A stretch of 42,443 nucleotides of DNA. Source: Sanchytrium tribonematis (lineage: Eukaryota). The DNA lies in NCBI GenBank assembly GCA_018985235.1, contig JADGIG010000020.1, positions 1-42,443 on the forward strand, in the 5' to 3' direction. Positions 775-42,327 of the stretch are shown here, in pieces (the first letter of the stretch is position 1; each line of letters starts with the position of its first letter). Position numbers and translations under genes: made by a program. Under the pieces are notes generated by a model. The model had not been told where the DNA came from, did no database searches, and saw only the letters and a list, made by a program, of their open reading frames with translations.

Positions 775-2630
775 ATGTCAAGTACCAACCCAACTCAAAA
801 GAATGTAATTGGAAATTACAGGTTGGAGAAAACCATAGGTTCTGGTACATACGGAAAAGTGAAGCTAGCAAAACATGTTACTACAAATGAAAAATTCGCG
901 GTTAAAATCATTGATAAGTCTAACATTTCAACTCAAAAACAAATTGCTCGAATTCAAAGAGAGATACGATTTTTAAAATTGCTTCAACACCCACATATTG
1001 TTAAAGTTTATGAGGTCTTTGAGTCCCCAAATCAGATTTTTATTGTGATGGAATATATTCAGGGTGGTGAATTATTTGACTATATTGTAGCGCACAAAAG
1101 AATAAAAGAAAAAGAAGCGCGGGTTTTTTACAGAGAAATACTTAGTGCAGTGGACTACTGCCATAAGAATGGTGTCATCCATCGAGATTTAAAACCAGAA
1201 AATTTACTCTTGAATGAAAACAAAAATATCAAAATTATCGATTTTGGTTTTGGAAACATATTTTTCCCAGATGGCTTGTTAGATACGTTTTGTGGATCAC
1301 CATTTTATGCTGCACCAGAAATGATACTGGGAAAGAAGTATGAAGGTCCGGAGGTGGATATGTGGTCCTTGGGAGTTATTCTATTTGCTTTGCTATGTGG
1401 CCATCTTCCTTTTGACGATGAAAATATTAAGGAGCTTTACAAAAAAATATCGGCAGGTCAGTACACGATTCCAAACTATATATCAAATGGTATGAATTTT
1501 CTAATTTAGAAGCAAAAAGTCTCATATCAAGATTAATAACAGTAGATCCTAAAAAAAGGGCCACTCTTCTAGAAGTTTGTCAACATCCATGGCTTAATGA
1601 AGGCTATGATGGACCTCCGGAAAATTTTTTGCCAAAGAGGCCCGTCTTGACTGAATTTTCCCAGCTAGATACTGAAATTCTCACGCGAATGCAAGCATTT
1701 GGGCACACTAACGAAGAAATCCAGAAAGCTTTTGAAGCGGACAGAAGTCAAAATAGACCAAACCCAATCCGGTCTACTTACTTTTTGCTTCAAGAAATGA
1801 TGGAAAAAGAAAAAAGGAAATCAGGAATTGCGGTTCCTAATGCTCAAAGCTCTCTATCGGCACCAGAAGAAAAGAAGACAAATCAATCGACCAGTTTGTA
1901 CGCAATTAATGAAGACAAGACTACTGCCGTGAAACTATTGGCACCAAGTAATATAGAAAGTTCGAAAAACAACTTCACATCCATGCCCCAAGTAGTAGTA
2001 GATAAAGGAAGAAGAGCTTCAGCCTTTGACGGCAAGGTTCAATCAACTCAACATCAGAGATCTGCAACCGATGGTCCAAAGCCTCATGTAGTGGCCGTCT
2101 CAACTCAAAATTTATCTCCTGATTATGGCCCCAAATCGGCACCAGCGCAAAATAATTCGTTACAAGTTCCAGTCAGCGAAGAAAAAGGAAGGCGCCACTC
2201 TGCTAATCAGATTGATATCGATAGTAGCAACAAAAGCATCAACGAAGATGCGAGTATTAAGTCTCTTGCTAGTTGGTTTTTAAATAATCAAACTACATCT
2301 AATAAACTACCAGTAGAGATAATTGCAGAAGCAGTAAAGGTTCTTAAGGAAAGTGGTATTCACTTCGCTATTGATGGGTATTGTATCGAATGTGTCCAGG
2401 ATGACAAGTTGTCAGAGCAAGACTTTCAGTCTTATCAAACTAAAGATTTGAGACGTGGATCTATCATGGCCATCCCTCCACAAATGTCAAAAAATGCTGT
2501 AGTATTCAGAATTGAGGTGGGAAAGGTCCCAAAAATCAATATGCATGGTGTTACCTTTAGAAGAATTAGTGGTGGTGTGTGGAATTATAAAAAAATTTGC
2601 AACAAAATCGTACAACAGATGAGTTTATAA
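775..2630 (+). CDS. KIN1: Kin1/MARK/PAR-1 family Ser/Thr kinase with C-terminal KA1 domain; join(775..1489,1510..2630), 611 aa
   Basis: GSGTYGKV, HRDLKPEN, DFGFG and TFCGSPFYAAPE motifs. Removing the 20-nt intron 1490..1509 restores subdomain XI (ISNEAKSLISRLITVDPKKRATLLEVCQHPW). KA1 tail FRRISGGVWNYKKICNKI. First ATG is at 775. Confidence 0.92.
1490..1509 (+). other. 20-nt spliceosomal intron GTATGAATTTTCTAATTTAG
   Basis: GT..AG with CTAAT branch motif. Removal joins the kinase ORF in frame to the downstream ORF and restores conserved kinase residues. Confidence 0.95.
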
Positions 2631-2649
2631 TAAATAGAAAAATTATGCT

Positions 2650-3361
2650 TTATTCAAATCTCAATTTAAGGGAATCATCTATATACGACCTTTGTTGGTA
2701 AGCCGGGTCAACGCTGTTCTTTGACCTATCTATTTTTTTCAAGTCTTTAATAACAGCTCGTAGTTCTATATTTTCTTTCTCTAGATTTTTGACTCGAATA
2801 TAAAGCTCTGAATTTTCAATGTAGTTTTCGTCGGTCTGTGTTTCTTTAGATTGCAAAACTTTCAAGAAACTAAAATCATCAGCGATGGAATTCCTGGATT
2901 CGGGCTTATTATTCGGCTCAATAAAATTGATAAGTCTAGATGTAGGTCTCTTCTTATTTTCTTTTTTGTCCAAATCTCCAGAATCGGATGTCGAAACATT
3001 CTTTATTTTTTCTTTCTAAATTATTTTGAAATACTAATTGTGACACAGTATCACTTTCAGCGGTGTCAATGAATGATTGAGGTCTTTGTGTTGAACTCTG
3101 ACTTCTTCTCCGACGTTGAAATATTGGTGAGTTGTTATCCTGAACTTTGACATCAGATTGTTTAATTTCTGCATTGGAATTGTTGATAGAGCTAGGTCTG
3201 CTAGTCTTTGTTACATTCGATCGAGAATTACGAAGAGTAAATGTCCCTTCCGTTCCCTTCATACTTTCTTCCATTTTTCTTTGTTCTTCCAATTCGTTGT
3301 CTTTCTCGTTATATTTATGTTTATTGTCATCTGCTTTAAACGCGCTAATAAATTTATTCAT
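2650..3361 (-). CDS. Hypothetical low-complexity/coiled-coil protein with KETQT motif; complement join(3035..3361,2650..3015), 230 aa
   Basis: ORFs 2954..3361 and 2650..2973 join in frame on removing the 19-nt intron 3016..3034. No recognisable family. Confidence 0.7.
3016..3034 (-). other. 19-nt intron GTATTTCAAAATAATTTAG
   Basis: GT..AG; matches the window-wide TnAY-NNAG end; joins two ORFs in frame (SQL|KEKIKNVS). Not anchored by homology. Confidence 0.8.
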
Positions 3362-3391
3362 TTTTAAATGTGGCTTTATTGAAAAATGTAA

Positions 3392-4468
3392 TTATATCGG
3401 CATGTTTCTGGTAAGGGTTAAACTCTGAATATCTTTCCTGGAAAGAGTTTGAAAGACTTGGGAACCAGCAGGAAAATCTTTAGACTCCTTATTTCTATAC
3501 TGCCTAACTTCTGCCCAGAGAATTTTATTTCTTTCTCGAAGCTCATCAACTACCTCATTTTGTTTTTGCATTGCCTCATCATATTCTTTAACCTTGGTTG
3601 TTAAAGCTTCATTAAGCTTCCATAATTGTCCCACTAATGCATTCGACATGACTAATAGTGTATCTGTTTGACACTCTTTCTCTTCATGCTTTTCAATCTC
3701 GTAGCCTTTATAATCCTCCGTTTGTACTTCACCGTCTTTCTTTTCAAAAACAGAATGATCCCACTCGGTCATGGTTTCTGCATCAATAAATTGGCTTCTG
3801 TCAATTGCCATAGGTTCGTTTTCAAATAACTCTATTATTTTCTGGCTAGTTATGATTTCTTCACTTACGCTTGTGGGAGAATGGTCATTTTCTTTTAAAT
3901 TACCTGATACAAACTTTATATTTTCAAGCCGTGGTTGGACCAAACTGTCAGTTAAATAGCTCAGTTTTTTAAGAAATTGATCTGCAAAGTCATTTTCAAG
4001 AGTAGAGTTATCGTCATTCTCGGCTTGAGTGCGATTTTGTGCCAAATTATTCAGTTCATCGATAATTAAGACTATATCTGTATCAATCTTTGATTGGAGT
4101 ATTGTTTTGGTTCTAGAAATGCGATTTGTGGATTCCTGATTACTAACACGCGTCTCTGTTGTGGTTGCATCGACTAAAATAGCTGTCGTAGGCTGACTCA
4201 AGACTTCCAAATTTTGCAAGGAATGTGATGAAATAGTTGGAGAGGTTTTGATTTCGTCAATTAATCTCATATTAAAGTGGGGCTGAATGTGCGTTTTCTT
4301 TTGGTTTCGTTCATTCTTCTTCGGGACCAAAGACAACCTCTTTGATGGGTCTTCATTTTTCTTTCTCGAGGTAGTCATTTTCGAAAATAGAGAGCTGCTT
4401 TCTTTATCGATGCCCTTCTCCAATGATTTTTGTGTGCTATTCAAGTTGTCACGTAAAGATTTATTCAT
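3392..4468 (-). CDS. Hypothetical protein with repeated QT-like motifs followed by a coiled coil, 358 aa
   Basis: Long ATG-initiated ORF; Ser/Thr/charged low complexity; motifs DAETMTE, GEVQTED, KECQTDT; C-terminal heptad segment. Confidence 0.7.
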   Translation of the reverse strand: MNKSLRDNLNSTQKSLEKGIDKESSSLFSKMTTSRKKNEDPSKRLSLVPKKNERNQKKTHIQPHFNMRLIDEIKTSPTISSHSLQNLEVLSQPTTAILVDATTTETRVSNQESTNRISRTKTILQSKIDTDIVLIIDELNNLAQNRTQAENDDNSTLENDFADQFLKKLSYLTDSLVQPRLENIKFVSGNLKENDHSPTSVSEEIITSQKIIELFENEPMAIDRSQFIDAETMTEWDHSVFEKKDGEVQTEDYKGYEIEKHEEKECQTDTLLVMSNALVGQLWKLNEALTTKVKEYDEAMQKQNEVVDELRERNKILWAEVRQYRNKESKDFPAGSQVFQTLSRKDIQSLTLTRNMPI

Positions 4469-4509
4469 TGTTATTTTTAATGGGTAATATTTTAAAAGCC
4501 ATGAAAATT

Positions 4510-5433
4510 TTATTGAGATTGATCAACACTGGTGCTTCTGGTCATATTGATAGTCTCTAGATCTCTCGAAAGTCTTGTGACGGAAAGTGCGAGGCGCTTA
4601 TTTTCTTGTTTGTAATAGTCGCATTGAATTCGCATATCTCTCAATTGTTTGATTAGCTCGTTGTTCATTTCCTCCAATTTCGATTCTCTAGTAGATTTGC
4701 CAGCCTTAAATTCGAATTCCAGGCTTTCAGCTATATTATTCACAGAAACGAAGTCTGGTGACTTATTTCCTAATTTATCGGGATTTCTCATTAGTACATC
4801 GGTAATTGAATTCATAGAGTGGTACTGAGGTTTGATAACTTGTTCCGCAGGTCTAAAGATATTATCAGTGTTGGCCGAAACAATTTTTGCTGAGTCTGGA
4901 ATTTTAGCCTCAGGGACCCGCCGATATTGATCCATAGCGGATTGCGGCTGTAAACTCAGATTTGAAACCGACCTTATTTTTGTAGTAGAATTCACGCTCA
5001 TAGACAAATTTGGAGCTGAGAAATATGGCATGTCCAATACAACGTCCGACGATTCCAAGTCAGAATTTTGAACTTTTAAATTTTTAATATTACGAGGGAG
5101 ATATGGTTGAAACCCGGGTCCGGCGACCTCATGCAATGAAATGGAGTAAATTGGGTTGGAAATTTTCGAGCTTTTATACTCATCAATTTCCATATATTCA
5201 CTTTTAGAAATTTTTTCAACAAATTTTCTAATAAGCGGTTTTTTCCGTTGTATCTTAGACGGCTTTTTAGAAATACTGACATATCGTTTCATTAATCTGA
5301 ATTTTTTTCCACAAGCATAATCATTAGCTCTCAACTCTTCAAATGAATATTTGTTGTATCCAGAACAACCAGTTATCGATTGAAGATTTCCATCTTCGAA
5401 GTGGACCGATTGAAAAGTTCCCGTTTGTAACAT
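4510..5433 (-). CDS. Protein with an N-terminal Nup98/Nup116-type GLEBS-like motif and C-terminal coiled coil, no FG repeats
   Basis: LQSITGCSGYNKYSFEELRANDYACGKK resembles the Nup98 GLEBS consensus (QCITAMKEYESKSLEELRLEDY). First ATG is at 5433; the ORF track starts at a TTG at 5469. Confidence 0.65.
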   Translation of the reverse strand: MLQTGTFQSVHFEDGNLQSITGCSGYNKYSFEELRANDYACGKKFRLMKRYVSISKKPSKIQRKKPLIRKFVEKISKSEYMEIDEYKSSKISNPIYSISLHEVAGPGFQPYLPRNIKNLKVQNSDLESSDVVLDMPYFSAPNLSMSVNSTTKIRSVSNLSLQPQSAMDQYRRVPEAKIPDSAKIVSANTDNIFRPAEQVIKPQYHSMNSITDVLMRNPDKLGNKSPDFVSVNNIAESLEFEFKAGKSTRESKLEEMNNELIKQLRDMRIQCDYYKQENKRLALSVTRLSRDLETINMTRSTSVDQSQ

Positions 5434-5918
5434 TCGTGAATCTACAAGATGGCTTTTCTGTGGAAACAATAAGAAAAAAATAAAATATAAAAAGATAGAG
5501 TCAAACCTGAGATCGAATGCATATTCTTCAGCATCAGTATATTAATAAATGTCTTTTTGATTCGATTTAATTTGAAAAACACGTCTATCTCCATACATAA
5601 ATGAGAGGTTATTCCAAGAGCACTCTGAGTTTATCACAACACCTGAATTCATTGATAATATTTTGCCTAGTCTATCTGAAGCCCAGAGAAGCCAATATCA
5701 CGGTAGCTCTTACGGTGTTTATGGTGAAATGAGATACGTATTAGGTTTAAATCTGCAAAATCATTCTTTCAGCTGTGATAAATATTATATACATGAAGCA
5801 CTTAATTCTGATAACATGTAAATATGAAGGAGGTTCCTTAATAAGAATCGAACATGAAGCCTTGTATTTTTGTGCTTTATTAATAAATTTGTCCTGCAAA
5901 AATCACTCCGTGTTACAA

Positions 5919-6578
5919 ATGGTCTCCCACGTTATTCAAATCTATCTAGCTTTAATACATCTTGCTATCCTCTTTCTATTGTTCGATCTTCATCACGTTT
6001 TCTACCCTATTGATATTAATCTAACTCGAGTTGGAAGACTATTTGATGCTAGCATTTTTTCGAAAGAATCATTGTTAGCTACTTCAAAATTGCATTCTCA
6101 AAGCAATTGGCCAAAATACATACATACTACTAGGCCTTTATGGAGCTCTATCGATGAAATCGTGCTGCATAAACACCCTGAGTACTTTATTCAAAAACAC
6201 TATCCACATTTGTTTCATCTTTACAACCATGCTAGTAAACAACTGCAAGAGCCTATTGCAAATATATTGTACACAATGCATTTTGGAGGTCTTTATTATA
6301 TTAATATATCTTCAATATCTGAGCATGACAAAATCTCTCGCTTTAAAGTCAATTCATTGCATTCTCCAATTATAATTTACACAATTAATCGAAAATTGAC
6401 CGCAATTTTAAGCAGACCAGATGAATCATTCTGGAAATTTGTAGTGCAATTGGTGAATATGAGAGTTCCTGTCTGGAAATATCAGAATTTAGATTTTCTT
6501 GTTGGTGGTAGCATGATCAGAGACGCTGTAAGGTTATACGAAGAAAATGGCGGATACATTGAATGGGTTCATATATAA
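5919..6578 (+). CDS. Glycosyltransferase family 32 (Sur1/Csg1/Och1-like) type II membrane protein, apparently lacking the DxD motif
   Basis: N-terminal hydrophobic anchor; 'WPKYIHTT' resembles IPKIIHQT; also 'FIQKHYP', 'ILYTMHFGGLY' and 'FWKFVV'. ATG at 5919. Confidence 0.6.
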   Translation: MVSHVIQIYLALIHLAILFLLFDLHHVFYPIDINLTRVGRLFDASIFSKESLLATSKLHSQSNWPKYIHTTRPLWSSIDEIVLHKHPEYFIQKHYPHLFHLYNHASKQLQEPIANILYTMHFGGLYYINISSISEHDKISRFKVNSLHSPIIIYTINRKLTAILSRPDESFWKFVVQLVNMRVPVWKYQNLDFLVGGSMIRDAVRLYEENGGYIEWVHI

Positions 6579-6589
6579 TAAATCTTTGA

Positions 6590-8905: not shown

Positions 8906-9046
8906 TTTGTTTCAAATTCTCCATCATCTTTGCAATATTTGCCGTATCTAATCAGAATTTTGTTCATACAAGTTCTACAATCAGCATCATAACACTAGTG
9001 AATCAAGGATTTGTAAATAAGTCTGGAGTTCATATTAAAAGTTGAT

Positions 9047-9556
9047 TTACTGGCAGCAGAATAATCTCAAAAAAATGTTAGGTTTCTTCTTTGGTATTAC
9101 TTTAGGCTGACGAGATGACATTCTCGGGGATGGGTCAGCTGATCGATAAGGCTGATTAGTTTTCCTCTCTCGTCTCATATTGGCATTGGTTGAACTTCCA
9201 TCCCTCTTTTTTTCTAAATTTCTTGACCTTGAGCTCGATCGCTCTCTTTGTCTCTCTTTATGCTTTCTTATAGAATCGGTGGTGTGGCCTTTATGATTTC
9301 TTGAAGTTTTACTTCTACCAGATCGCTCACCTTTGTTTCTGCGCTTTCTGCTACTTCTCGATGATGAATTGCTGCTTTGCAATTCATCATTTGTGACTTT
9401 CTTTTTCGCAAAATCAGGAACATGCCCGTGCTTTTCCTGATAGTATCTTTCCAAAGCATCATCAACTTCTTCCTCTTCGTTTGGCGCAAAATATCCATTG
9501 ACTTGTTTGGTGACATGTTCAACATTCTCGCTCACCCATTCTCCCCAAGTAGCCAT
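9047..9556 (-). CDS. Possible Mso1-like Sec1-binding protein with basic tail and C-terminal CC motif
   Basis: 'DDALERYYQEKHGHVPDF' resembles the Mso1 Sec1-binding segment (ALxxYYxEKGxxxPxW). Ends KKKPNIFLRLFCCQ, a likely lipidation site. Confidence 0.45.
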   Translation of the reverse strand: MATWGEWVSENVEHVTKQVNGYFAPNEEEEVDDALERYYQEKHGHVPDFAKKKVTNDELQSSNSSSRSSRKRRNKGERSGRSKTSRNHKGHTTDSIRKHKERQRERSSSRSRNLEKKRDGSSTNANMRRERKTNQPYRSADPSPRMSSRQPKVIPKKKPNIFLRLFCCQ

Positions 9557-9669
9557 TGTTCAAAAACTACTTGAGTGCGCTTTTTTAACAAATTAATTTG
9601 TAAATGATTGGCTAGAAATTCGTCTCAAGCAAAAAAATTATTGAGGGTCTAACGTCAATTATCTTAGTC

Positions 9670-10794: not shown

Positions 10795-10936
10795 AATGTT
10801 TGCGCCATAGAATCGTTTATGTTATGTAGTAGCATTAATTAATTTTTCATACGATTTCATTAATATCACTTTTACTCCAATCAAATGAGTTTTCAACATT
10901 TTATAATAAAAAATTTGCTTCAAAAGCAGTTGCACA

Positions 10937-11587: not shown

Positions 11588-11589
11588 AT

Positions 11590-12606: not shown

Positions 12607-12695
12607 AGAAGATATCAATTTGACGCGATGTCTCCTTTAAATATTTCGAAAGTTGCGTGATTTGCCGCTTTATCAACATCATCATTTGTATTATT

Positions 12696-13077
12696 TTATT
12701 GACTTTTTTTTGGGCTTGAGCTATCTTTTCGGTCGCCTTGCTTAGCTTCTGCTTCTTCTTTCGCTCTCAATTCAGCGATTTCAGATTTTGTCAAAAAACG
12801 ACCACCGGGACCTAAATAAAATAAAACAACCTCTCATTCTACTCATTGCGTGTTTGTGTCTACTTTCATGGAGATAAGGTTTCCTGGCCTTAGGGTATTT
12901 TGCCTCCATTCTAGCTCGTTGGTCTCGTCTTTTAAGAATTCTATGATACTGCTTAGCATTAACGTACAATGGATCACTAAATCCCATTTCCTCTTGCGGT
13001 TGATTAAACATTGATGTAGGAAACGCGTAATTGTGCTGAGGGTCTGACGATTGTTGAGTCAAATTTTGTTGATTCAT
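12696..13077 (-). CDS. HAP2: CCAAT-binding factor subunit A (Hap2/NF-YA); complement join(12831..13077,12696..12811), 120 aa
   Basis: '[14 protein letters not shown]', '[14 protein letters not shown]'. Removing the 19-nt intron restores the invariant RGPGGRF DNA-binding motif. Confidence 0.95.
12812..12830 (-). other. 19-nt intron GTTGTTTTATTTTATTTAG
   Basis: Removal gives [12 protein letters not shown], the exact NF-YA consensus, so intron length is fixed by homology. Confidence 0.96.
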
Positions 13078-13213
13078 GTTTCAAAATGGCTTAAAATTTA
13101 CAGTTCAAAAATTTATGGACTTCTAACGGTAATCTCTGTAATGATATGCTTCCAATTTGGTGTGCGAAAATAGATACTAAAGGAGTACTAGTTGAAGGCA
13201 TCATAATATGCAT

Positions 13214-13978
13214 TTATTTTTCCAACAGCTTCTTTGAACCTCTTAGTAGACCTGTTCTTCTTGCAGCGATTAAACCAACTTTCTGACCAGGGCAAGCTTC
13301 TCTGCTAATGGTCGAGGCATGACCAATATGTTGATGATTACCACCACCGTGAGGATGATCCACTGGATTCATAGCCACACCTCTAGTTTTAGGCCAACAA
13401 TTTCTTTTTCTCTTCATTAAATGATGCTTTCTACCTGCCTTTAACATTGGCTTATCGATTCTACCACCACCAGCAACTAAACCAACCATTGCTCTGCAGC
13501 GAGAGGAAATAATCTTCTTGGAGCCACTAGGTAGTCTAACTCTACTAGTTCCGTCTTCCGAATGTCCAATAATTTGAGCATAATTACCAGAAGCACGGGC
13601 GTATGCACCTCTGTCACCTTCTCGTTCTTCGACGTTACAAATAATGGTACCTTCAGGCATAGAACCGATTGGCAAAATATTTCCAATTGTTAGTTGCGCA
13701 TTTTTACCAGCATTAATTTTTTGACCTGCGAACATACCTTCAGCCGCAACAATCAATTCGTGGTCCGTCTTGTGCTTGTATGGGTTTCGAAACTTGATTT
13801 TTGCAAGTGGCGCACCACGACCAGGATCGTGAAGGATTTCTGTTACTGTACCAGTGATATATCCATTTCTTTCTGTGTAGTCTAATTTTCTTAACTTAGC
13901 TGCTCCTTTTCTGTGCTTCACATGGGCAGTAAATATACTACCTCTACCTTTACGTTGGACACGAATTACACGACCCAT
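13214..13978 (-). CDS. RPL2: 60S ribosomal protein uL2 (yeast Rpl2, mammalian RPL8)
   Basis: [11 protein letters not shown]...HDPGRGAP...[21 protein letters not shown]; full length and intronless. Confidence 0.99.
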
Positions 13979-14091: not shown

Positions 14092-15267
14092 TCACTGACC
14101 ATCGGCCTTGGATGTAACGTCATAAACTACTGGCAAATCGGCAAAATCGGCCTTATCTAACATTGGTTTCTTAGTTGGCTTGGTATAATCCAATGTGATA
14201 AATTGATCAATCATTTGTTGATGTTCTTTTGTAGGAGCAGCCAACGGCTTCTTTGACTTCTTTTTTTGCTTAAGAGGATTCTCTTCTAAAAGCAGCTCCT
14301 CTAGCTCATGAGTAGCGTCAAAATTCGGTCTTTTTGACTAAATAAAATTAAATTACATCTGGAACAAATGGAGCAGCGCAACCTTTTTTCGCCATTTCTT
14401 CCCAAGGACTTCTTTTCAACCATGGTTCTTGTTTCAGACGCTCAAATCCTGTGCATCCTAATCTCGATTTGACATCTCTATTTATGAACTTCTTAACACA
14501 ATCAATACATTCCTGGCTAACATGCTGGGTAGCATTGTCCGGAAAATGAAGTGGGTCGTGCAAGATAGCATGGGTAAGAGCATCATTAGTCTTGCCACGA
14601 AACGGTCTTTTCCCGAACAAAAATTCGTAAAGCATCACCCCCAGCGACCAATAGTCGACACTACTTCCGTATCCCTGTTTTGCCAGAATTTCCGGTGCCA
14701 TATAAGCCATCGAACCTGCGATACTTGTTAATAATTTGTTAGGTTTCAAATAGACTGCAATATTAAAATCAGTCAGGTGAGCATGTCCTTTTTCGTCCAA
14801 TAAAACATTATCAGGCTTTATGTCTCTATGAACAACATTATGACTATGTAAATAATTTAATGCTAAAGCAATTTCTGCAGTATAAAATTGAACAACATCT
14901 TCTTTCAAACTCCCTTGGCGATCTATATGAAAACGGATATCGCCTCCCAGCATCAAATCGAGAACCATAAATAGGTTTTCATCATCTTGAAAAGCGAACC
15001 TAAGATTCACAACTAAAGGGAACTCCACTTCTTCTAATAATCTTCTTTCTTGTATGATATTATCTACTGCTTTCATCTTTATACACTTGGCTTTGTTAAT
15101 ATATTTTAAAGCATAAAGTTTTTTATCTTTCTTATGTTGAACAACTCGTACTTTACCAAACGCGCCTTAATTAGTGTGAATATACCTTTACCCACGCTTC
15201 TCATGAGCTCAAAATGGGATAGTTCTACCTCCCCATCATAATTTTCTTTAGAAGATCCACAGCCCAT
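14092..15267 (-). CDS. AGC-group YANK/STK32-family kinase with N-terminal MGCxxSK acylation motif; complement join(15186..15267,14357..15165,14092..14337), 378 aa
   Basis: The spliced product reads MGCGSSK...HFELMRSVGKGAFGKVRVV...DFNIA...APFVPDSKRPNFDATHELEELLLEENPL, which are STK32-type signatures. Confidence 0.92.
14338..14356 (-). other. 19-nt intron GTAATTTAATTTTATTTAG
   Basis: Removal joins PFVPD to SKRPNFDATHELEELLLE, the conserved STK32 tail. Confidence 0.94.
15166..15185 (-). other. 20-nt intron GTATATTCACACTAATTAAG
   Basis: Removal restores the glycine-rich loop GKGAFGKV exactly; CTAAT branch motif. Confidence 0.96.
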
Positions 15268-15368: not shown

Positions 15369-16674
15369 TCAAAATTCAACTTTCTCGTCACTTTTGTCTT
15401 CCGGTCCAATGAGAGCCTCTAATTCATCTGGCACAGCTTGTTCTTTTGGCAATAACGACAATCCAAGCAGAGGAATGAATAGCAAAAGAGAACGAAGAAT
15501 TATCAGCTTTTCCAAACCTTCGAATTGGTGAGGTGTAATGTGATATCTGTCTAATAACCAGCTTCCAATAAAAGACCCCACATCCGAAGTGGTATTAATC
15601 CAAGACATCATAAAGGCATAAAGAGAATTAGCAATAGGACTTGGGCATACTGTGGCACAATATATCAACAAAGGCATGCCAGAGAGTCGACCTAAGACAC
15701 TTAATAAAATATTATATATTACCAAAAACCACAGATCTGACATCAGGTAGAGGTTGTATCGCTTAAACTGTATTAGATCTCCTAAAGAAAGCACACTTGT
15801 TACTAAATAAGCCATAATTACTTATGGTCGTCCATATAGTGACTTCTCTAATGTTTGCCATGCTCAAATATCTTTGAAATAGCCAACTTCCCAGTGCCAT
15901 CCCAAAGAATGAAAATGTATCAGCATATCCCAGAATTTGGGCATCCATGCCAATGCTCAGCCTGAAATATGTCATACCCTCGTAGACAGATATTGATGTT
16001 GAATTTTGAATAAAGAAAAACAACATCGGATGAAATATCTCAGGGCTAAAAAATGCCGAAAATACTAGCTTCAGTTTTGAATATATTTGTTGAAAGGGTG
16101 TTCGTTCGGACTCTACAGATTTGTATAGCAAGGAAATTATCATTACAAAAAACGAACAGGGTATCAACAATTTGATAAAAAAGCTAGTACCATAATTTAT
16201 AACAACGTATCCTCCACCTAAAGAGCTAATAATCCCTCCAACAGCAAAAGCTATTGTTGTGCTACTTTGTATTTTAGTATTAAATATTCTGGAAGACAAG
16301 CTGAGATTTGTCCATTTGATCATTTCGCCACCCATGACAACAGAGGCCATAGCACCTCCCAAATTTAAGGCAAGCATAGATAATGTTAATTGAATTGGAT
16401 CAATACTATTATAGATTCCAAACAGTCCCAAACATAAAATTAAATTTGATAATATAAGATAGGCTTTTGGCATCGGCTTTAAGTCCATCATCATTCCAAA
16501 TATCAACTTCATATTCCATGGCTGTTTGGCAATTGTTTTCAGAAGTGTCGCCTGACTAGGATCTAATAAAAACTTATCCCTGAATACTATACTCAGAACA
16601 ATATTTATATAGTTTCGCAATCCAGCAAAGCAACTGACGAATCCTGTTAGCCAAATGAATGATATTCCTTCCAT
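15369..16674 (-). CDS. Folate-biopterin transporter (BT1/FBT family, MFS fold); complement join(15822..16674,15369..15802), 428 aa
   Basis: About 12 hydrophobic segments; 'PWNMKLIFGMMMD' resembles PWxxKPxxGxxxD; 'MPLLIYCATVCP...YAFMMS..N' is typical of BT1. Confidence 0.8.
15803..15821 (-). other. 19-nt intron GTAATTATGGCTTATTTAG
   Basis: Removal joins the two transporter ORFs in frame (WTTII-TSVLSLG) within a hydrophobic helix. Confidence 0.9.
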
Positions 16675-17035: not shown

Positions 17036-17045
17036 TGTAAATAGT

Positions 17046-19624: not shown

Positions 19625-20954
19625 ATGAGTCACTCTTCGCCGAATTTAATTGATATTCCTAGCCCGAATATTCAGTCAGAAAATGAAATTTCACAGGGTA
19701 GTTTGCTCTCCAAACTCAAGGAAATTATAGGAAAAGACATAGATAGTCTTAGAATATCAATCCCGATGTTTTTAATCCATCCCGAATCAAATCTGCCATT
19801 TTTAAGCCGATTGCACAATATCGAAAAACTAATGAAAATTAGCAATGACAAAGTAGAACGGTTTACAGACATGTTATCGGCATATCTCGCACAATTAAAA
19901 AATGGACTTGTTAAGTCCAAAAAACCTTTAAATCCTGTTTTGGGAGAAATTTATAAGACGGTGTTTGTTGATAACGCCTTGAAATCCAAGAACAAGGTTC
20001 ATGTCGTAGCGGAGCAAGTATCGCATCATCCACCTGTATCAGTTTTTACCTGTTTTACCGAGGACGGTAAAACCGTAGCTACAACACTCTTTGATACTAA
20101 GGCATCATTTACAGGTTTACATTTCAGCTTAAAAAACGATTCAAAAGCCCACGTTCAGCGAAGCGTATTTATAGATGGAAATGAAACCCTTGAAAATTAT
20201 TATTGTATATTTCCTGACGCAATTGTGACTGGAATAATGAGTGGCTCTTTTCAACTTGAATGGACCAACCAATTCACATTTTGGAGTCCTGAATTGGGTC
20301 TGAAAGCAATTATTAAATTCGAAAATAGCTGGTTTTCAAAAACAAAGGTTGAAGGCTGGATATTTCGGATATCAGATGTCGTTGAACCTTCAATTTCTAC
20401 TAGTAAGGAATCCTTAAAATCCCTTGCGAAGTCGTTAAAGACTGTAAAGATCGACGGACCAGGTTTAAATGAATTAAGGCCAGAGGCTTCGGATATTTTG
20501 TTTAGCATATGGGGTAGCCATCATGATACGATCATGGCTACTACAATCGATAAATCTGTAACTTAAATTTACGTAGAATTCCGTAATATTGTATTCTGTA
20601 GAAGATGCTGGTACGTTTTCGCAGATAAATCCCAAGTATCCTAATTTGGAGCAGATGATAAACTTTAATGAAAATTTTGAATCTTATATGAAAGATATTT
20701 ATGACAAAGGCTCAACATGGAGGCACTCCGAATTAAATTCAGATGATTTAGAACCTCACAATAGCCAAGTATTATGGTTTGCAGTAACTCAGTCTGTCGC
20801 GCAAGAGCAGTCATCAAAAGCTTCAGATTGGAAAAATTACATTGAAGAAAGACAGCGAAAAATACGGCAATCTTATCCTGATGAAAAATATCCTCTCAAA
20901 TTTTATGACTTTTCAGATGACTGGTTACCATACAAATTTAAAATGCCAAAATAA
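19625..20954 (+). CDS. Short oxysterol-binding protein homolog (Osh/ORP); join(19625..20557,20577..20954), 436 aa
   Basis: 'KKPLNPVLGE', signature EQVSHHPP, and C-terminal 'K..IEERQR'. Confidence 0.92.
20558..20576 (+). other. 19-nt intron GTAACTTAAATTTACGTAG
   Basis: Removal joins the two OSBP ORFs in frame (IDKS|NSVILYS). Confidence 0.9.
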
Positions 20955-21899: not shown

Positions 21900-22074
21900 T
21901 GACGTATCTAATCAAATCTCTAAAGTTGAAACTAAAATATGCAGTTCGAGCAAAAGATACTCAGTCATTTAGATCGAATTTATGAAGAAATGTTGGATTC
22001 TCTGGAAGAAGATATTATCAATTCATATTCAAGTAAATAAATTAAAACCCCTCGAATTCGATTCTCCTACGTAC

Positions 22075-22650
22075 ATGTATTTACGTCGATTTCTTAAAGT
22101 GCTGGCTAGCGAGATAAAAAGTGGAGATCATATTATATTTAAAAGTAGATTGTCAAAAGTAAATGTTGTGTCCCATTCTCATTTGGGAAGAAGCGGAGCC
22201 ACTCTGAAATTTCAAATTGGAGATCTCAAAAACTTAGGATCTACTTCCTTTACATGTCGACCCTCAGAATCTATAGAATTGGTTGAAATAGAATGGCACA
22301 CCTGTTCAATTGTATCCATTTCGGATGGTGAGGCTGTACTAAAATCAGAAAATGAAATTGAATATGTATTAGATGAGTCCTTGATTCCGACATTTTCATT
22401 CTTACAAATTGATATGTTGATTAAAATTGGGGTATACGACAAGGAAGTTGTTAGCGTTAAGATGCCTACTCATTCTATTTACAAAATTACGCATGTTGAA
22501 AATTCAGGTAGTGCGGATCGAAAAAAAGGGATAAAATTTTCTTGGATGATACTTGAAAGTGGTGCAAGAATAAAGGCTCCTGGATTTTTGAAAGCGGGTG
22601 ACCAAATTGAGGTCAATTTAAGTAAGTTGACATACCAGAGGAGAATCTAA
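22075..22650 (+). CDS. Bacterial-type elongation factor P homolog, probably mitochondrial
   Basis: Short basic presequence MYLRRFLK; then 'ASEIKSG..I', tip loop 'HLGRSGA', 'V.MP', and 'LESGARIKAPGFLKAGDQIEVN...YQRR' (EF-P C-terminal signature). ATG at 22075. Confidence 0.82.
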   Translation: MYLRRFLKVLASEIKSGDHIIFKSRLSKVNVVSHSHLGRSGATLKFQIGDLKNLGSTSFTCRPSESIELVEIEWHTCSIVSISDGEAVLKSENEIEYVLDESLIPTFSFLQIDMLIKIGVYDKEVVSVKMPTHSIYKITHVENSGSADRKKGIKFSWMILESGARIKAPGFLKAGDQIEVNLSKLTYQRRI

Positions 22651-22653: not shown

Positions 22654-24613
22654 TTATTCTGATGCTTTGTCAAAGATTGGAAAATTCGACTTGACAGTTT
22701 CCCATGTCCATCCGTAATCTTGAAAGTCATCGTCTTTGAGGTATGCAAATCCATTTGTTAGCTTAAGCATTACGTCATGAATTGCACTAATTTTAATTCG
22801 CACTTGTTCTAACGAATCTCTTTCACGAAGAGTAACTGCTTCGTCTTTAAGGGTGTCAAAATCAATCGTGATACAATAAGGCGTACCTACCTCATCAGCC
22901 CTAACATATCTTTTGCCAATTGTTGTAGAGCTCGAATCCTCCAATGTGTGAACACCTAGAGTCTTCAATCTTTTGGCGATTTTGTCGGCTATAGGAGTTA
23001 AACTGTCATTATTGAAAAGTGGTAATACAGCACACTGTACTGGGGCCATATGAGGACAAAATCCCAACACGTTTCGTTTGGCATCTTCTGGGCGGCCATA
23101 ATAAGATTGCTCTAAAAGTCCGTAAATAATTCTTCCAAATCCAAAACTTGGCTCAATAATATGAGGTACAATTTCCTCTACTGTGTAAAAATAAATTACC
23201 ATGCAATATTTCTGTTTTGGGGGTGATCGTCACCATTTCAGAATCGATTGTAATCTCGCCTAATGTTTCTGTTTTTATAATGTGGCTTCCTGCAGATTGA
23301 AGATTTGTCATCAGAGTTTCTTTTTCAGTAAAGTCCAAATTTTCAAGAATTTGCTGTACTGATTTTGCATCCCTTTTGAAAGATTTGCCAATAATGTTCA
23401 TTTTTACATCGATCGCCAATACATCTCTTTTAATTGGAGGGTCAAGTTTTTTCCGATATACCATTTTTTCCTTGGTACTTTCTGAATGCTTCGTCAGGTC
23501 AAAACACCCTCTATCAGCTAAACCAATAGCTTCAATCCATCCGTAACTTGTTAAAATTTCAGTATCCCAACAATCATTTGCATAATGTGCCATTTCATTG
23601 CTCATGTGCTGCCGAAACCTAAATCCGTTATTATTGAATCCGATAAAATTTAGAAATAGCTGGATCCTTCCTAAGTAATATCCCAAAATTTGAGACTTTA
23701 TAAAATTTTGTTTGACAGCCTCATCGATTGTCATGACAGAAATCGTCTCAAGCCCTTTTTGCTGAGTCTTGGCATCTAAGAGTCGAATTTCAAGATTCTT
23801 AATTGTATCAAATTTGGGGTGTGATTTCTCATTAGGATCCACAAAATGTTCAATTTCACCCATTAGAAACTCGCGAACTCTCAAAATTCCAGATCTTGGA
23901 GCAATCTCATTTCGAAATGACTTTCCGATTGTGCAACTGACCGGCAATTCCTTTAGCTCGCTAAGCTTATTGAAATGCATAAATTGGGACTGCGCAGTTT
24001 CTGGTCTCATAAAAGCATTAATGGGGGTCATTCTTTTAGCAGTTTGCTCCATAACATCAGTATCAACCCCCAGACATGTACCAAACATCAAATTGAATGC
24101 TATGCAGTGACTTAAGGGTTTTCCAGTAGGAGACTCAATTTTGTGTTGTTTAATAATATCATCAAACTCAGAATTTGTAAAATTATCCAGTTGATTTAGA
24201 AGAGACTTGTAAATCTTATGCTCTGCTGAATATTCTTTTTTCTCCAGACGATCCTGAAAAACTTGCTTTATCAAGTGATCTGCCCGAAAGACATTTCCGG
24301 TCGATTTGCCCTTATCCAGTTCATACGTCATCCAGTCACTAAATCTATCGACATGTCCGCTACTCTTCAAAACCGGGTATGGTGTAATACTAACGGTATC
24401 TAATTCAAACATATTTTCCTCCACAATAAACCATTTGCGAAAATAATAAATAAGATTATTCATCAACGGTGCACCATAAGGACCATAATCAAACAATCCT
24501 TTATAGCCACCATAGATCCCAAAAGACGGGTACACAAATTTCCTTGCCAAAAGTATGTCAAACTCAGTTTTGTTCAATCGATGCAAGGACATGGGGATGT
24601 TTGAAGTCTCCAT
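22654..24613 (-). CDS. GRS1: Glycyl-tRNA synthetase, eukaryotic alpha2 type; complement join(23200..24613,22654..23180), 646 aa
   Basis: 'IYGG..GLFDYGP', 'SGHVDRF', 'RPETAQ', 'GKSFRNEI', 'EMAHYA.DCWD', 'IEPSFG.GR', and anticodon domain 'IGKRY.RADEVGTP'. Confidence 0.95.
23181..23199 (-). other. 19-nt intron GTAATTTATTTTTACACAG
   Basis: Removal gives ILHVEEIVPHIIEPSFG, matching the conserved GlyRS segment. Confidence 0.95.
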
Positions 24614-26458: not shown

Positions 26459-29075
26459 TTACGACCTAGCAAAATTTGAATCGTGGAAGTACCTCGCCCC
26501 AATTGGAGGAAGATCGGGGACTATTGGATCATCTTTGGGTAATTCAATTCCTTCAGCAGCTATGTCTAATAGATGTAATCTCAGTTCCAAATCTGATAAG
26601 CTATTAACAAATTCAGCAGTGTCCTTATTTTGAATTGGACGTTCAAGAAGCATATTGAACCCGTCGGTCCATTCTGAAAATTGAGTTGGATTTTGACAAA
26701 TTATTTCAATATTTACCAGTCCATCACTCGTATTTCCACTTGTATCTTCCGCAGTTGTAACAACCCTGAACATCAAATCTTTATATGCAATGTCCTGTTT
26801 TTTATTTTGAGCATCAGGTGAAGGTCCCATGGATATGTCGGTTACATTCAAGATATCAACTAAATTAAAGAAGTGTACTTTTGTTTGGTAAATCTTCAAC
26901 ATTAAGATTCGAGTCTCTGGCTTCTGGGTATTCTCCCCAATGTATAAATTTGCGATTACTAGATAATTTGAAAAATCTAGCTTGGTTTTTCTTTTGTTTG
27001 TTAAGAATTGGACTTTGAAACCAAGCACCCGCAAGCAGGCAGCTAATTCTTTGATCTTTAATAAAGTCATATGTGTCTGTATAAAGTTTTTTTCTTAAAT
27101 TCCGTACCATGTGATGATTTACGAGTTGGTCTTCTTCCTCGATGTCTTTAATGTATCTACTTTTTATGTTGGAGTACTTTTCATTCACAATTATTGGAAT
27201 TAATGCCTCTAATGGAATTGTCTCTTGCTTCAGGCAAGTTTTCATATGGGACCTAGTAATAGCCAAGATTTTTAAAAAATGGGCATTATATTCTGGATCA
27301 GACAGTCCCAGCTTCTTTTCGTCAGAAAGATCCTCTCCCCACAATCGCAAAAATGTTTGCAGCAAAGAAGTTTGAACTTGCTCAAAACTAAGTATGTGTG
27401 GCTGGAAAGAAGTCTTAGTCATAACTCCTGTGCTGATGTCCCAATGATCACAAAGCATCTCGGTTATTTCGAAACTGGCGCGACAAACTGGTGGCCGCAT
27501 GCTCCAATTTTCGTCAGGATTGTCTAAGTTTAGATCAATTGGAAGAACCTTAAATTGCTCCAAAATATCCTTTTTAATTAAAATGTCAATTAATAACTGT
27601 AATCCTAGTACCCCAACTCTAGTTGCATCTTTAACTGGATCTTCCGTTTTGAATCCAAGTCGGCGCCAAAACCTAATGTCTTGATCTTTTTCATTCTTGG
27701 TGTCTTCCAAATCTTCTACAAAAACATCGTCATCGTCATTAACATTCTGAAGTGATTCGGTCAAATTTTGACTTTCTTTCAATTCAAGTGTAGTTTCTTC
27801 TTGAAGTGCGGATCTGGTTGAAGATGATTTTTTCTTGGCCCTTTTCTTAGTAGCTCTTTTTAATTTATCCGAGGTGTCCAGATCATTAACTGATCCCAAA
27901 GGCGATTCTTCAGATGTTGCGGCAAAAATGTTTCCTTCTGACAATCCCACCTCAGAGGTGGCCTTAAGGGGAGCAAAAGACAATTTGCTGGGAGAAGGAG
28001 ACTGTACGCTAGATGAAGGATCAATAATTACGGATGCTTCTTCTTTTTTACGTAACACCATCGATCTTGGGAACCCGAAAACTTGTAATACATCATTCAG
28101 TAAATTCACAACTCTCTTTTCTTCCCATGATACATTCGTCGATTTCCGTAGAAAATATTCGAAAATGACATGTCTTTGAAACTCAAGCAGTGTTTTATCA
28201 ACCTCTTCCTGCTGTCCTACTTTAGCCATTAAGGATATTATTATTTCTCTAGTTCCATTTTGATACAATAACCTGGCAAACTGCTCCTTATTGCTCGAAT
28301 GTAAGGAATTTTTAAACAAAGAGTTGAGCAATGTCAAGCTACTGACTTGCACCAAATGATCGCTGGCACTGAGTCTCTGAATTAAAGTGGATATGACATT
28401 CGCAGATCCACATGCTGTAATCGCTCTATTAAGTACATCAAATCCATAGCATCTTACAGCCCCTGTGGATTTTTCGTCAGCATTAGCAATTTTTATAATA
28501 ATACTGGTTACTGGTTTCGAAATTGTAAATAAACTTTCGTTAACTAAAGTATGAACTAGATGCTCGATAAATTTATCTTCGAAAGTATCCCATCCACTAT
28601 CCATTTCCATTAAATTATTCAAGGCCACCAAAGCATATGCTAAAGTATTACCACTTGCTTCCAAAATTACTTTTTTAACAGCCAAAAAACCCTCTTTAGC
28701 AACAAATTCATTAACATAATCCCTCTCTCTTAATCTTTTTTGCAGTGCAAACATGGTCAATTTAATAGCAGCAACATCACTGGACTTCAATTTCTCAATA
28801 GCTTCCTTACTTTCAATAGCTGGTGAAGCAGTCAGTTTTAATGTTGCATTAACTTCTAATTTCTTCTTCAGATATTCTTCAGTCATCAAACTATCATCTT
28901 CACATCTTAAAGAATAAGCTTGTCCAATTGGTAAGCCATCCATTTGATTCGGTAATGAAAATGACTCCACGCATAATTTTGTGACTACTTGTTCTAATGT
29001 ATTACTTGTATTGATACTTACAGCTATACTGTTCTTTGTTTTTTCATTAAAAACTGTAATATTAATAGAAGGCAT
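26459..29075 (-). CDS. ELMO/CED-12 family protein (ubiquitin-like, ARM, ELMO domain, PH, proline-rich tail); complement join(26879..29075,26459..26859), 865 aa
   Basis: 'GNTLAYAL.AL..LME', 'WRRLGFKTEDP..D..RVGVLGL', 'FIKDQRISCLLAGAWF', 'WTDGFNML', tail 'P.VPDLPP'. Confidence 0.9.
26860..26878 (-). other. 19-nt intron GTACACTTCTTTAATTTAG
   Basis: Removal joins the PH domain in frame (EDLPNKIDILNVTDI). Confidence 0.92.
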
Positions 29076-29189
29076 CAAGCAGACGTATGTTTCAGATGAG
29101 TCTCAATTTGTTTTGAAAGGAGAAATCAAGGAACTTATTGAGGAATTGAGAGCCTTTATCGCGAAGACCGCTTCCATATTTAAAATGAA

Positions 29190-40631: not shown

Positions 40632-40661
40632 AGAGAGGAGTGTTTCAAAAATTAATACTTT

Positions 40662-42327
40662 TTATTCGATTAAAGCAGGAAGATTTACTTCCAATCGCGG
40701 AGGGGGGCCTAAATTACCACTATTTTCTGCAAACTTTGAAGTCCTGGATGTCAAAATATCCCAAATCAGTTTTTGAGTCTCATTATTCTGAAATTTTACC
40801 AAAAACTTTTGTGTTGATGCAATCAAAATGCAGTGGTCGTATAAATTACAGGGCATGACACTTAAATCTTCCATAGCAAGTACTCTTCCGTTCTCCCCGG
40901 TGTCATTTTCTGATAAAATAATGTGCTCAGCGTCGAATATTACGTGTATATAGCCACATTTAAATTTCGAGGAGCCTACTTTGTAATAACAATTTTCGAC
41001 ATGAGTATTTTGAGGAGATTTTGAAGCAATCGTTGTTTTGGAGTTGCTCAGAAGTTCAGATGAATTCTCAATAGTTTTACCACTCGGAAGCGGAGAGCCT
41101 GATGAATGCCTTCGAAAATGCAACCCACCCGGCCCCATCGAACTATTTCTAGACTGTCTCTTTTTTAATTCTTTTTCTGCAATAGAAATCTTACTATTTA
41201 TGGTTGTCCTAATAGATCTGTCCCTATTTAAGAACTCTAAATTATTCAATTGAGGTCGAAATAATATGAGATATACTTTCTTTCCGAAATATGCAAAAAA
41301 TATGGTGTAGGTGGAAGCAAATATTATCATAGATAAAAGCAAAAATCTTGTACCTGGAGTAAATTCATAAAACAAAATAAGTGGAAGCAGTAAGGTTATC
41401 AAAATCAACACAACATAAATACAGATTCCAATACTCTTACTTCGTGAATTAAAAATACCTTTCTTTGTACGCTCCTTGACAATTTCTTGTTTTGTAGCAA
41501 TAAAAACTTGAAATTAATAACATTAATAACGCAAAAAATAGGAGTGAAGTATCCAAAATGTTGGCCAAAAGATAATTGCTTGACTGACAGCTCCAAGCTC
41601 GAGCGATAATTTCAGTGCGTATTTGTGGTATCGGCGAATTTACTACACTATAAACTAGACATAATGCAGAGACAATAAATAGGAGCATAAAAAGTTGCGC
41701 GAGAACAAACATATCGGAAATATTGTTCAGAGATCCCTTGGTATTGTTAAAAATGACGTAAATCCGTCTTGTCTTTAGCAAGAATGTTCCATAGACTATT
41801 GTAAATGATAAAGAATAAACCCATATTCTCAAATGGCAGGCTATCTGAGTGGGGACACCGAGTTCGAAGAGAAACGCAGAGTACGAAATCAAAAGTCCAA
41901 TTAGTATAACCATGTTAAAAAAATATGAACTAGATTTTACAGCGGGAGTTTTTCTATATTTTGTTAGAATAATAATGAATAGAATGATAACGACAACACC
42001 AATTATTGCAAACGTAAGCATCATAATTGCTTCTAATGAATTAAATTCAACATGATCTTTATATGACTGTACATAAGACGCTTGTATGTCGCCATCCGAG
42101 ATTAGCCGATCTTTAATAATTTGCAAATCTTGGCCTTCAACAAAGACTCCGCTTTTGTCTTGTACCGAAAATGAAAACTCGCACTTCTCAGTTTGATCAA
42201 ACGAACGAAAAACTTCATTGAAGTCGCCTATCTTGTGAAGCCTTAATTGAACATTGTCTATCACTTTATCTTGCAGCAATTTGCTGCAATCCTTGTCTTC
42301 AAACCTAATTGTTATAAAGTCATACAT
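40662..42327 (-). CDS. Class C (GABA-B-like, 7tm_3) GPCR with short N-terminus; complement join(41459..42327,40662..41439), 548 aa
   Basis: 'YRKTPAVKSSSYFF...GLL', 'CHLRIW...SFTIVYG..LLKTRRIY.IFNN', and after splicing 'YKTRNCQGAYKESKSIG'. Start codon uncertain. Confidence 0.85.
41440..41458 (-). other. 19-nt intron GTATTTTTAATTCACGAAG
   Basis: Removal restores the class C GPCR 'xESKxIG' motif preceding TM6. Confidence 0.93.

What the first reader, a model, noticed from the sequence alone, without database searches (positions are those of the whole stretch)
1490..41458. Branch point fixed six bases from the 3' end in 11 of 11 introns, with no polypyrimidine tract
Seen in sequence, last 9 nt of each intron: CTAATTTAG, ATAATTTAG, TTTATTTAG, TTTATTTAG, CTAATTAAG, CTTATTTAG, TTTACGTAG, TTTACACAG, TTAATTTAG, TTTATTAAG, TTCACGAAG. 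All have T at -8, A at -6 and a pyrimidine at -5, a degenerate YTNAY branch site fused to the acceptor. Acceptors are TAG x7, AAG x3, CAG x1. Inference: the -6 A is the branch nucleotide, giving a lariat loop of only 14-15 nt, and the 3' splice site is chosen by a ruler rather than by U2AF65/polypyrimidine scanning. Stentor tiny introns also place a conserved A six bases from the 3' end, which suggests a convergent steric minimum.
Basis: partly seen in the sequence, partly recalled or inferred. Interest (0 to 1): 0.8.

Follow-up and report, generated by a model that had tools for sequence, protein, structure and literature searches.

The report
Fixed branch site in tiny introns
Eleven genes breaks in this DNA from a sanchytrid (a fungal parasite of algae) are 19-20-base inserts that all carry an A exactly six bases from their end; they are likely introns and that A is likely the branch point, a layout already known from the yeast Yarrowia and the ciliate Stentor but not found in print for fungal introns this short.

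Summary
Observation confirmed. Eleven GT-AG inserts (8 of 19 nt, 3 of 20 nt) break ten genes; all have T at -8, A at -6 and a pyrimidine at -5 (invariant-A column in 8 of 200,000 shuffles). Homology or lack of any alternative fixes 10 of 11 acceptors without using the motif, so this is not reader bias. The DNA is sanchytrid (RPL8 90% to Amoeboradix). Read-through peptides of relatives force A at -6 at three more sites. The -6 A as branch point is likely but untested: no RNA was available. The rest of the reading is weaker. The same fused layout is published for Yarrowia (long introns), so it does not follow from loop size; Stentor loops are shorter (10-11 nt). Amoeboradix keeps U2AF65, U2AF35, SF1 and Dbr1. 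Every acceptor is also the first AG, so ruler and scanning cannot be told apart. New lead: Slu7 and Prp18, dispensable in yeast at such short spacing, are missing from the Amoeboradix annotation table. This scan noted the same introns and the same -6 A earlier on other pieces of this genome.

The parts
1490..1509 (+). 20-nt intron, phase 1, in KIN1/MARK-like kinase; predicted branch A at 1504
   Evidence: Spliced product aligns without gap to 12 of 12 homologs; the AG 3 nt further on leaves a one-residue gap. Relatives P0370, P0371 break at the same site. Allele G>A at intron base 5.
3016..3034 (-). 19-nt intron, phase 0, in an unnamed coiled-coil/bZIP-like gene; predicted branch A at 3021
   Evidence: Frame restoration only; six longer alternatives exist, no homolog test. 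Weakest of the eleven.
12812..12830 (-). 19-nt intron (16-nt alternative donor shares the acceptor) in NF-YA/HapB; predicted branch A at 12817
   Evidence: Exon 1 aligns to solved NF-YA up to its last residue, which rules out the upstream acceptors listed.
14338..14356 (-). 19-nt intron, phase 0, 3' intron of AGC/YANK kinase; predicted branch A at 14343
   Evidence: Gap-free junction against 12 full-length homologs; 4 of 4 relatives break at this site.
15166..15185 (-). 20-nt intron, phase 1, in the glycine-rich loop of AGC/YANK kinase; predicted branch A at 15171
   Evidence: Gap-free against 13 homologs including intron-less relative P0366; relative P0126 reads through a 19-nt version with A at -6.
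15803..15821 (-). 19-nt intron, phase 1, in BT1 folate/biopterin transporter; predicted branch A at 15808
   Evidence: Pfam BT1 position 293 ends exon 1; exon 2 residue 3 is position 297, as expected with one split codon.
20558..20576 (+). 19-nt intron, phase 0, in oxysterol-binding protein gene; predicted branch A at 20571
   Evidence: Only frame-restoring acceptor in the search range; no homology across the junction.
23181..23199 (-). 19-nt intron, phase 1, in glycyl-tRNA synthetase; predicted branch A at 23186
   Evidence: Gap-free at the junction against 10 homologs including the intron-less Amoeboradix protein P0248; the AG 3 nt further on would delete a conserved residue.
26860..26878 (-). 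19-nt intron, phase 1, in ELMO PH domain; predicted branch A at 26865
   Evidence: Pfam PH_12 positions 62 and 63 abut across the junction.
33980..33999 (-). 20-nt intron, phase 1, in BEACH/WD40 gene; predicted branch A at 33985
   Evidence: Only frame-restoring acceptor in the search range; no homology across the junction. Base 14 is T and base 15 is A, so the A keeps to the 3' end.
41440..41458 (-). 19-nt intron, phase 2, in class C GPCR; predicted branch A at 41445
   Evidence: Pfam 7tm_3 position 196 ends exon 1 and 198 starts exon 2 (exon 2 hit weak, E 0.3).
13214..13978 (-). RPL8/uL2 gene used to place the organism
   Evidence: Exact sequence is in EukProt, clustered with Amoeboradix gromovi at 90% identity; best named non-sanchytrid hit 74%.

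Best explanation
These are likely ordinary major-spliceosome (U2-type) introns of a sanchytrid fungus, shrunk to 19-20 nt, in which the A six bases from the end is likely the branch nucleotide of a degenerate fungal branch site fused to the acceptor. Shown: the inserts, their ends, the fixed T/A/pyrimidine and exact restoration of proteins. Inferred: U2 snRNA pairs over about -11 to -5 and bulges the -6 A, which attacks the donor G to give a 14-15-nt loop with a 5-nt tail; SF1 and U2AF35/65 probably see branch site and AG as one element; the AG used is the nearest one, sitting at about the shortest spacing that docks, so second-step helpers Slu7 and Prp18 would not be needed. The fixed position most likely reflects compaction of both segments (donor-to-branch 14-15, branch-to-end 6) to what this spliceosome tolerates, rather than a special measuring device.
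For: Motif far above chance. 8 of 11 acceptors fixed by homology and 2 more by being the only frame-restoring choice. Of 11 break points in relatives' unspliced proteins, 4 (three distinct sites) force A at -6 with a pyrimidine at -5, 3 are compatible, 4 uninformative, none contradicts at its best-fitting length; the Amoeboradix kinase intron decodes to A-C-N-A-A-Y at -10..-5, the canonical fungal branch consensus if N is T. -6 is the only position with A in all 11, and the only T-N-A-Y site in 3 of 11. All 10 sites in the window matching GTA...T-N-A-Y-N-N-AG at 19-20 nt are these introns; 0 of 91 other GTA..AG 19-20-mers have the motif versus 59 of 1076 at other lengths. Amoeboradix has Prp8, Brr2, SF3B1, SF1, U2AF35/65, Prp5, Prp16, Prp17, Prp22, Yju2, Cwc25, Isy1, U1-70K, Dbr1 and no Slu7/Prp18 row. 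In yeast Slu7, Prp18 and Prp22 are not needed for step 2 below 7 nt spacing. Same layout in Yarrowia and Stentor.
Against: No RNA: neither splicing nor branch position was observed. The sanchytrid U2 snRNA was not seen (no Rfam hit in the window; no genome held). Predicted U2 pairing is best at -6 (mean 4.0 of 6) but hardly above -10 and -5 (3.8). 8 of 11 introns have a second T-N-A-Y site further upstream. The decoy depletion is post hoc, and is also seen on the antisense strand (0 of 37), which selection does not predict. Raw pattern counts are barely above shuffles (7 vs 2.4, 2 of 100 shuffles; 3 vs 2.3, 40 of 100). A 19-nt GTA..AG segment just upstream of the RPL8 start (14005-13987) has T at -6; if it is a 5' UTR intron it is an exception. 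All 11 were found as frame breaks, so in-frame and UTR introns are not sampled. The factor list is from a relative and from automatic annotation of intron-blind gene calls.
Confidence: 0.75

Rival explanations
1. Strict ruler: the spliceosome measures exactly six bases from branch A to the end and would ignore an AG at any other distance; U2AF65 plays no part.
For: Spacing is 6 in 11 of 11 and in the forced cases of relatives; the extra base of all three 20-mers lies 5' of the motif; in Trichomonas, moving a fused branch motif 2 or 7 nt upstream abolished splicing (passage).
Against: First-AG selection predicts the same acceptors in 11 of 11, including the two tandem acceptors. Three of three extra bases landing in the much longer 5' segment is expected about half the time by chance (my arithmetic). 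U2AF65 is retained in Amoeboradix.
Confidence: 0.3
2. The T-N-A-Y is an extended acceptor motif read by a protein (U2AF or SF1) or by Prp8, and branching happens at another, variable A upstream.
For: U2 pairing register is weakly defined; 8 of 11 introns have an upstream T-N-A-Y and all have some A at -10 to -18; nematode acceptors have conserved -6/-5 bases without a clear branch consensus.
Against: Upstream As are at scattered positions and would give loops of only 3-10 nt; ELMO has no A between -15 and -7; the motif matches the general branch consensus WCTRAYN and decodes to A-C-N-A-A-Y in Amoeboradix.
Confidence: 0.1
3. The motif is a by-product: AT-rich sequence, the reader's choice of boundaries, or selection for in-frame stop codons that send unspliced RNA to decay.
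For: Interiors are 87% A+T; 6 of 11 introns contain an in-frame stop.
Against: Composition-preserving shuffles give the invariant A 8 times in 200,000; 10 of 11 acceptors are fixed without the motif; the -6 A is part of an in-frame stop in only 1 of 11 and holds over all three phases; relatives repeat it.
Confidence: 0.03
4. The inserts are not spliceosomal introns (assembly errors, pseudogene lesions, or removal by another mechanism).
For: No transcript evidence; donor-to-branch distance of 14-15 nt is far below what yeast and human spliceosomes use (recalled).
Against: GT-AG ends in 11 of 11, precise protein restoration in essential genes such as glycyl-tRNA synthetase, same sites broken in other genomes; a second assembly of run X1 has the same letters over one 36.6-kb contig spanning 9 of the 11 (may be the same source DNA); full spliceosome core and Dbr1 in the relative.
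Confidence: 0.04

Closest known systems
Yarrowia lipolytica fused branch-point/3' splice-site introns (PMC2483917, parts 1-5 of 8 read; PMC2911113, passages)
   Same: Fungus; branch motif followed by 2 nt and AG, which puts the branch A at -6 (my count); no 3' pyrimidine tract; authors already propose joint recognition of branch site and acceptor.
   Different: Yarrowia introns are long (median 204 nt) with a strong ACTAAC consensus and strong donor; here 19-20 nt, degenerate T-N-A-Y and a donor reduced to GTA plus T-rich bases.
Stentor coeruleus / heterotrich 15-16-nt introns (PMC9505925, section 2.1 and passages)
   Same: Near-fixed length, conserved A at -6, weak U-rich branch context, GUA donor, 5-nt lariat tail.
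   Different: Ciliate; loop 10-11 nt versus 14-15 nt; mostly 3n length, whereas all 11 here are non-3n (biased by how they were found); T at -8 is invariant here.
Microsporidian introns (Encephalitozoon, Trachipleistophora; PMC3629993 and PMC3486916, passages; PMC2483917)
   Same: Reduced parasites in the fungal clade; TAAYTT branch hexamer within 0-4 nt of the AG.
   Different: 22-76 nt, only tens of introns per genome, strict GTAAGT-type donor; here 11 introns in 30 gene models and shorter.
Trichomonas vaginalis and Giardia lamblia fused BP-3'SS introns (PMC2483917; PMC6679479, passages)
   Same: Invariant branch-to-acceptor distance, no pyrimidine tract.
   Different: Branch A at -8 (my count), strict consensus, very few introns.
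Bigelowiella natans nucleomorph 18-21-nt introns (PMC6009652, passages; PMC2483917)
   Same: Same length class (median 19 nt), AT-rich, GT(A) donor.
   Different: No discernible branch A reported there; here the A is invariant.

Membership tests
U2-type spliceosomal intron | GT...AG ends whose removal restores the reading frame and protein | tested here: met
   11 of 11 GT-AG and frame-restoring; junction exact by homology in 7, acceptor fixed in NF-YA.
U2-type spliceosomal intron | Removed from mRNA | not testable with these tools
   No RNA holder listed.
U2-type spliceosomal intron | Branch A in a U2-pairing motif | tested here: inconclusive
   Invariant A at -6 in T-N-A-Y; pairing score with the canonical U2 motif only slightly best at -6; own U2 snRNA not seen.
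U2-type spliceosomal intron | Host encodes a major spliceosome and debranching enzyme | tested here: met
   For the relative A. gromovi from the published annotation table; for S. tribonematis only U1-70K, Prp5 and Dbr1 rows were seen in the 171 rows held.
Fused branch-point/acceptor introns (Yarrowia, Trichomonas, Giardia type) | Fixed branch-to-AG distance, no pyrimidine tract between them | tested here: met
   Spacing 6 in 11 of 11; 3 nt between A+1 side and AG. Branch identity itself inferred.
Fused branch-point/acceptor introns (Yarrowia, Trichomonas, Giardia type) | Strong branch consensus (same hexamer in over half of introns) and strong donor | tested here: not met
   -7 is T 6, A 4, C 1; -9 is T 7, C 3, A 1; G at +5 in 1 of 11. 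It works like this class in spacing but is a degenerate variant.
Tiny-intron systems (Stentor, nucleomorph, Paramecium) | Narrow length distribution under about 30 nt with weak signals | tested here: met
   8 of 19 nt and 3 of 20 nt in this window; genome-wide distribution not testable.
U12-type intron | Extended RTATCCTT donor and CCTTAAC branch consensus (recalled) | tested here: not met
   Position counts show neither.

The most novel reading that the evidence does not exclude
Sanchytrids run a spliceosome that recognises the whole intron as one 19-20-nt footprint, measured from both ends, and have lost Slu7 and Prp18 because the branch-to-AG spacing fell into the range where these second-step factors are dispensable, while keeping U2AF and SF1; this would be the first fungal case linking a genome-wide fixed 3' geometry to loss of specific second-step factors.
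Probability: 0.3. Interest if true: 0.75.

Novelty: new variant of a known kind. Interest (0 to 1): 0.5.

Why it matters
The fixed -6 branch position is itself known, but here it occurs in fungal introns of 19-20 nt, shorter than the 22-nt lower end given for Encephalitozoon and the 22-nt median called shortest in animals. With a visible branch A, which the equally short nucleomorph introns lack, these introns give a defined substrate for asking how a spliceosome folds a 14-15-nt loop and which factors it can drop. Practical point: public sanchytrid proteomes were called without introns, and the window's exon fragments stand in them as separate truncated proteins, which can bias gene-loss claims, including my own Slu7/Prp18 lead.

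Tried and rejected
Own genome not held. Sequencing-run search: no RNA holder listed, one DNA run; laying it gave no joints. Rfam scan of the window: 0 hits, so no snRNA. Two metagenome scans for sanchytrid DNA: a clade-specific RPL8 pattern found 0; the kinase query returned 80 loci, best 57% identity, none close, not used. RPL8 tree (quick method) grouped the window with two ENA proteins but did not place the clade. PDB searches on ELMO exons gave only approximate register. Pfam found no homology across the OSBP, BEACH and 3016-3034 junctions. Candidate in-frame 21-nt intron in GlyRS (24067-24047) rejected: Amoeboradix has the same coding insertion. 23-nt full-motif segment at 15722-15700 rejected as intron: it lies inside a continuous BT1 match. 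Relatives' breaks P0366, P0247, P0371 and the C-terminus of P0126 could not be decoded; P0367 fits 19 nt only by hand, since its peptide ends one base short of the test. KEGG ids K12833 and K12850 gave 0 rows; their labels are recalled and unverified. Lee et al. 2010 on Encephalitozoon introns was not held. Literature searches for prior description: 'Sanchytrium + intron' 8 papers, 'Amoeboradix + introns' 6, 'sanchytrid + spliceosom' 0, 'shortest introns + fungi + spliceosomal' 1; by listing, plus passages of two, none describes these introns; subscription papers are not covered.
Full report
What the window is. Gene-dense eukaryotic DNA, standard code, 35% GC, about 30 gene models covering 94% of the window, with fungal-type genes such as Gti1/Pac2, KIN1 kinase, ELMO, prominin and a class C GPCR. 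Its RPL8 is present letter for letter in EukProt in one cluster with Amoeboradix gromovi at 90% identity; the best named non-sanchytrid is 74%. It is therefore a sanchytrid other than A. gromovi, likely Sanchytrium tribonematis (inference; published GC 34.6%).

The observation. The eleven 9-mers end GT-AG segments of 19 nt (8) or 20 nt (3) in ten genes. T at -8, A at -6 and a pyrimidine at -5 are invariant; acceptors are TAG 7, AAG 3, CAG 1; donors are GTA in 10 of 11 with T-rich bases 5-7 and G at +5 only once. Shuffling each interior 200,000 times gave an invariant-A column 8 times and invariant A plus T once; any invariant column appeared in 1.4%, so the A carries most of the signal. Background GT..AG 19-20-mers have all three features in 20 of 410.

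Was the motif put in by the choice of boundaries? I listed all frame-restoring GT/GC..AG pairs near each break and tested them against homologs. KIN1, both kinase introns and GlyRS splice without a gap against 10-13 homologs each, including intron-less relatives; ELMO, BT1 and GPCR abut in Pfam profile positions (the GPCR exon 2 hit is weak); NF-YA exon 1 aligns to its last residue. OSBP and BEACH have one possible acceptor only. So 10 of 11 acceptors are fixed without the motif; 3034-3016 is not. In KIN1 and GlyRS the nearer of two tandem AGs, the one with A at -6, is the one that fits.

Independent replication. Public proteins of relatives were called without introns and read into them. Of 11 such break points, four force A at -6 and a pyrimidine at -5: P0126 (5' kinase intron, register set by exon 2), P0365 (Amoeboradix 3' kinase intron; 19 nt likely, 24 nt not excluded), and P0369/P0372 (a KIN1 site absent from the window; 19 nt set by 4 of 4 downstream residues; near-identical, counted once). 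Three are compatible (P0370, P0246, P0367) and four uninformative. Three forced sites at about 0.21 each is roughly 0.01 by chance (my arithmetic). P0365 decodes to A-C-N-A-A-Y at -10..-5, matching the usual fungal branch consensus if N is T.

Is it the branch point? Not shown. In favour: it fits the general consensus WCTRAYN, -6 is the only column with A throughout, and it is the only T-N-A-Y site in 3 of 11. The in-frame-stop explanation fails: the A is in a stop in 1 of 11. Against certainty: predicted U2 pairing is only slightly best at -6 (4.0 of 6 versus 3.8 at -10 and -5), and the organism's U2 was not seen. The relative encodes SF1, SF3B1, the branching factors and Dbr1, so lariat splicing is expected. 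The lariat step I put at about 0.85.

How the acceptor is chosen. The data cannot separate a ruler from nearest-AG choice: the acceptor is the first AG after the donor in all 11. The extra base of the 20-mers lies 5' of the motif (clearest in BEACH), which shows 3' anchoring but is expected about half the time by chance. Length also matters from the 5' side: the motif with a GTA donor occurs in coding sequence at other lengths (30 of 511), including a 23-nt full match inside a continuous BT1 domain, but in 0 of 48 sense and 0 of 91 total 19-20-mers (about 0.006 for the total by my arithmetic, post hoc, and the antisense zero is unexplained). The simplest reading is compaction of both segments to a tolerated floor.

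The machinery. The published eggNOG table for A. gromovi (3,755 rows held, against 3,757 annotated peptides) lists U2AF65 (E 1e-33), U2AF35, SF1/BBP in two adjacent pieces, SF3B1, Prp21, Prp40-like, U1-70K, Prp5, Prp8, Brr2, Prp16, Prp17, Prp22, Yju2, Cwc25, Isy1, Cwc22 and Dbr1. Slu7 and Prp18 gave 0 rows by name and by recalled ids. Yeast reviews state that Slu7, Prp18 and Prp22 are not needed for step 2 below 7 nt (PMC3392075, passages) and Slu7 at 9 nt or fewer (PMC10158995, passages). This fits, but the assembly is about 92% complete, only half the proteins are annotated, gene calls ignore introns, and Cyanidioschyzon lost both factors despite long spacings. The S. tribonematis sheet is cut at 171 rows and two supplementary files could not be read; they may bear on this.

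Comparison. Fixed, fused branch-acceptor ends without a pyrimidine tract are published for Yarrowia (A at -6 by my count), Trichomonas and Giardia (-8), and most fungi lack a 3' tract (PMC2483917, parts 1-5 of 8; PMC2911113 passages; PMC6679479 passages). Stentor has A at -6 with a 10-11-nt loop. A microsporidian pattern allows -5 to -9. Thus -6 is near a common lower limit but is independent of intron size, and 14-15 nt is not the smallest loop. What I did not find in print is this combination in a fungus: 19-20 nt, moderate density (11 in 30 genes), weak donor, degenerate but positionally fixed branch. Irimia and Roy found that short-intron lineages show no branch signature; this case sits between their two classes. 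Other papers opened: PMC13644364 part 1 of 3, PMC3629993, PMC6009652, PMC3749934, PMC13685798, PMC10459994 passages.

Verdict. Real feature, branch reading likely, ruler and steric-minimum readings unproven or overstated. New variant of a known kind; the scan has noted it on other pieces of this genome. Interest 0.5.

Noticed in passing
window 14005-13987 (-): 19-nt GTA..AG segment ending 9 nt before the RPL8 start codon; T at -8 but T at -6. Possible 5' UTR intron and possible exception; about one such segment near a start is expected by chance over 30 genes.
   Followed up: partly
window 38993-39012 (+): 20-nt GTT..TAG with the full motif spanning the prominin stop codon; splicing would extend the frame 77 codons into the opposite-strand PDI gene. 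Unresolved.
   Followed up: partly
window 26462-26441 (-): 22-nt GTA..GAG with the motif at the ELMO stop codon; a relative's C-terminus (P0534) gives no support either way.
   Followed up: partly
window 5463: Run X1 holds an allele with a 19-nt insertion that lacks GT-AG ends, in a T-rich stretch upstream of a gene with a weak Nup98 GLEBS match; several SNPs at 1-5929 suggest two haplotypes there.
   Followed up: no
relatives' proteins P0248, P0247, P0366, P0369: Intron positions differ among sanchytrids: Amoeboradix lacks the GlyRS intron but has a KIN1 intron the window lacks; P0366 lacks the 5' kinase intron; P0247 breaks 7 residues downstream in GlyRS. Suggests turnover of tiny introns.
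   Followed up: partly
A. gromovi annotation table, NODE_116 p11 and p12: SF1/BBP is split into two adjacent ORFs, as expected if it holds a tiny intron itself.
   Followed up: no
window 23156-24613 (-): GlyRS is very divergent (about 43% to other fungi) and has a sanchytrid-shared insertion of about 11 residues before motif 2.
   Followed up: no
window 21973-22650 (+): Gene with an elongation factor P C-terminal match (E 1e-6), probably mitochondrial.
   Followed up: no
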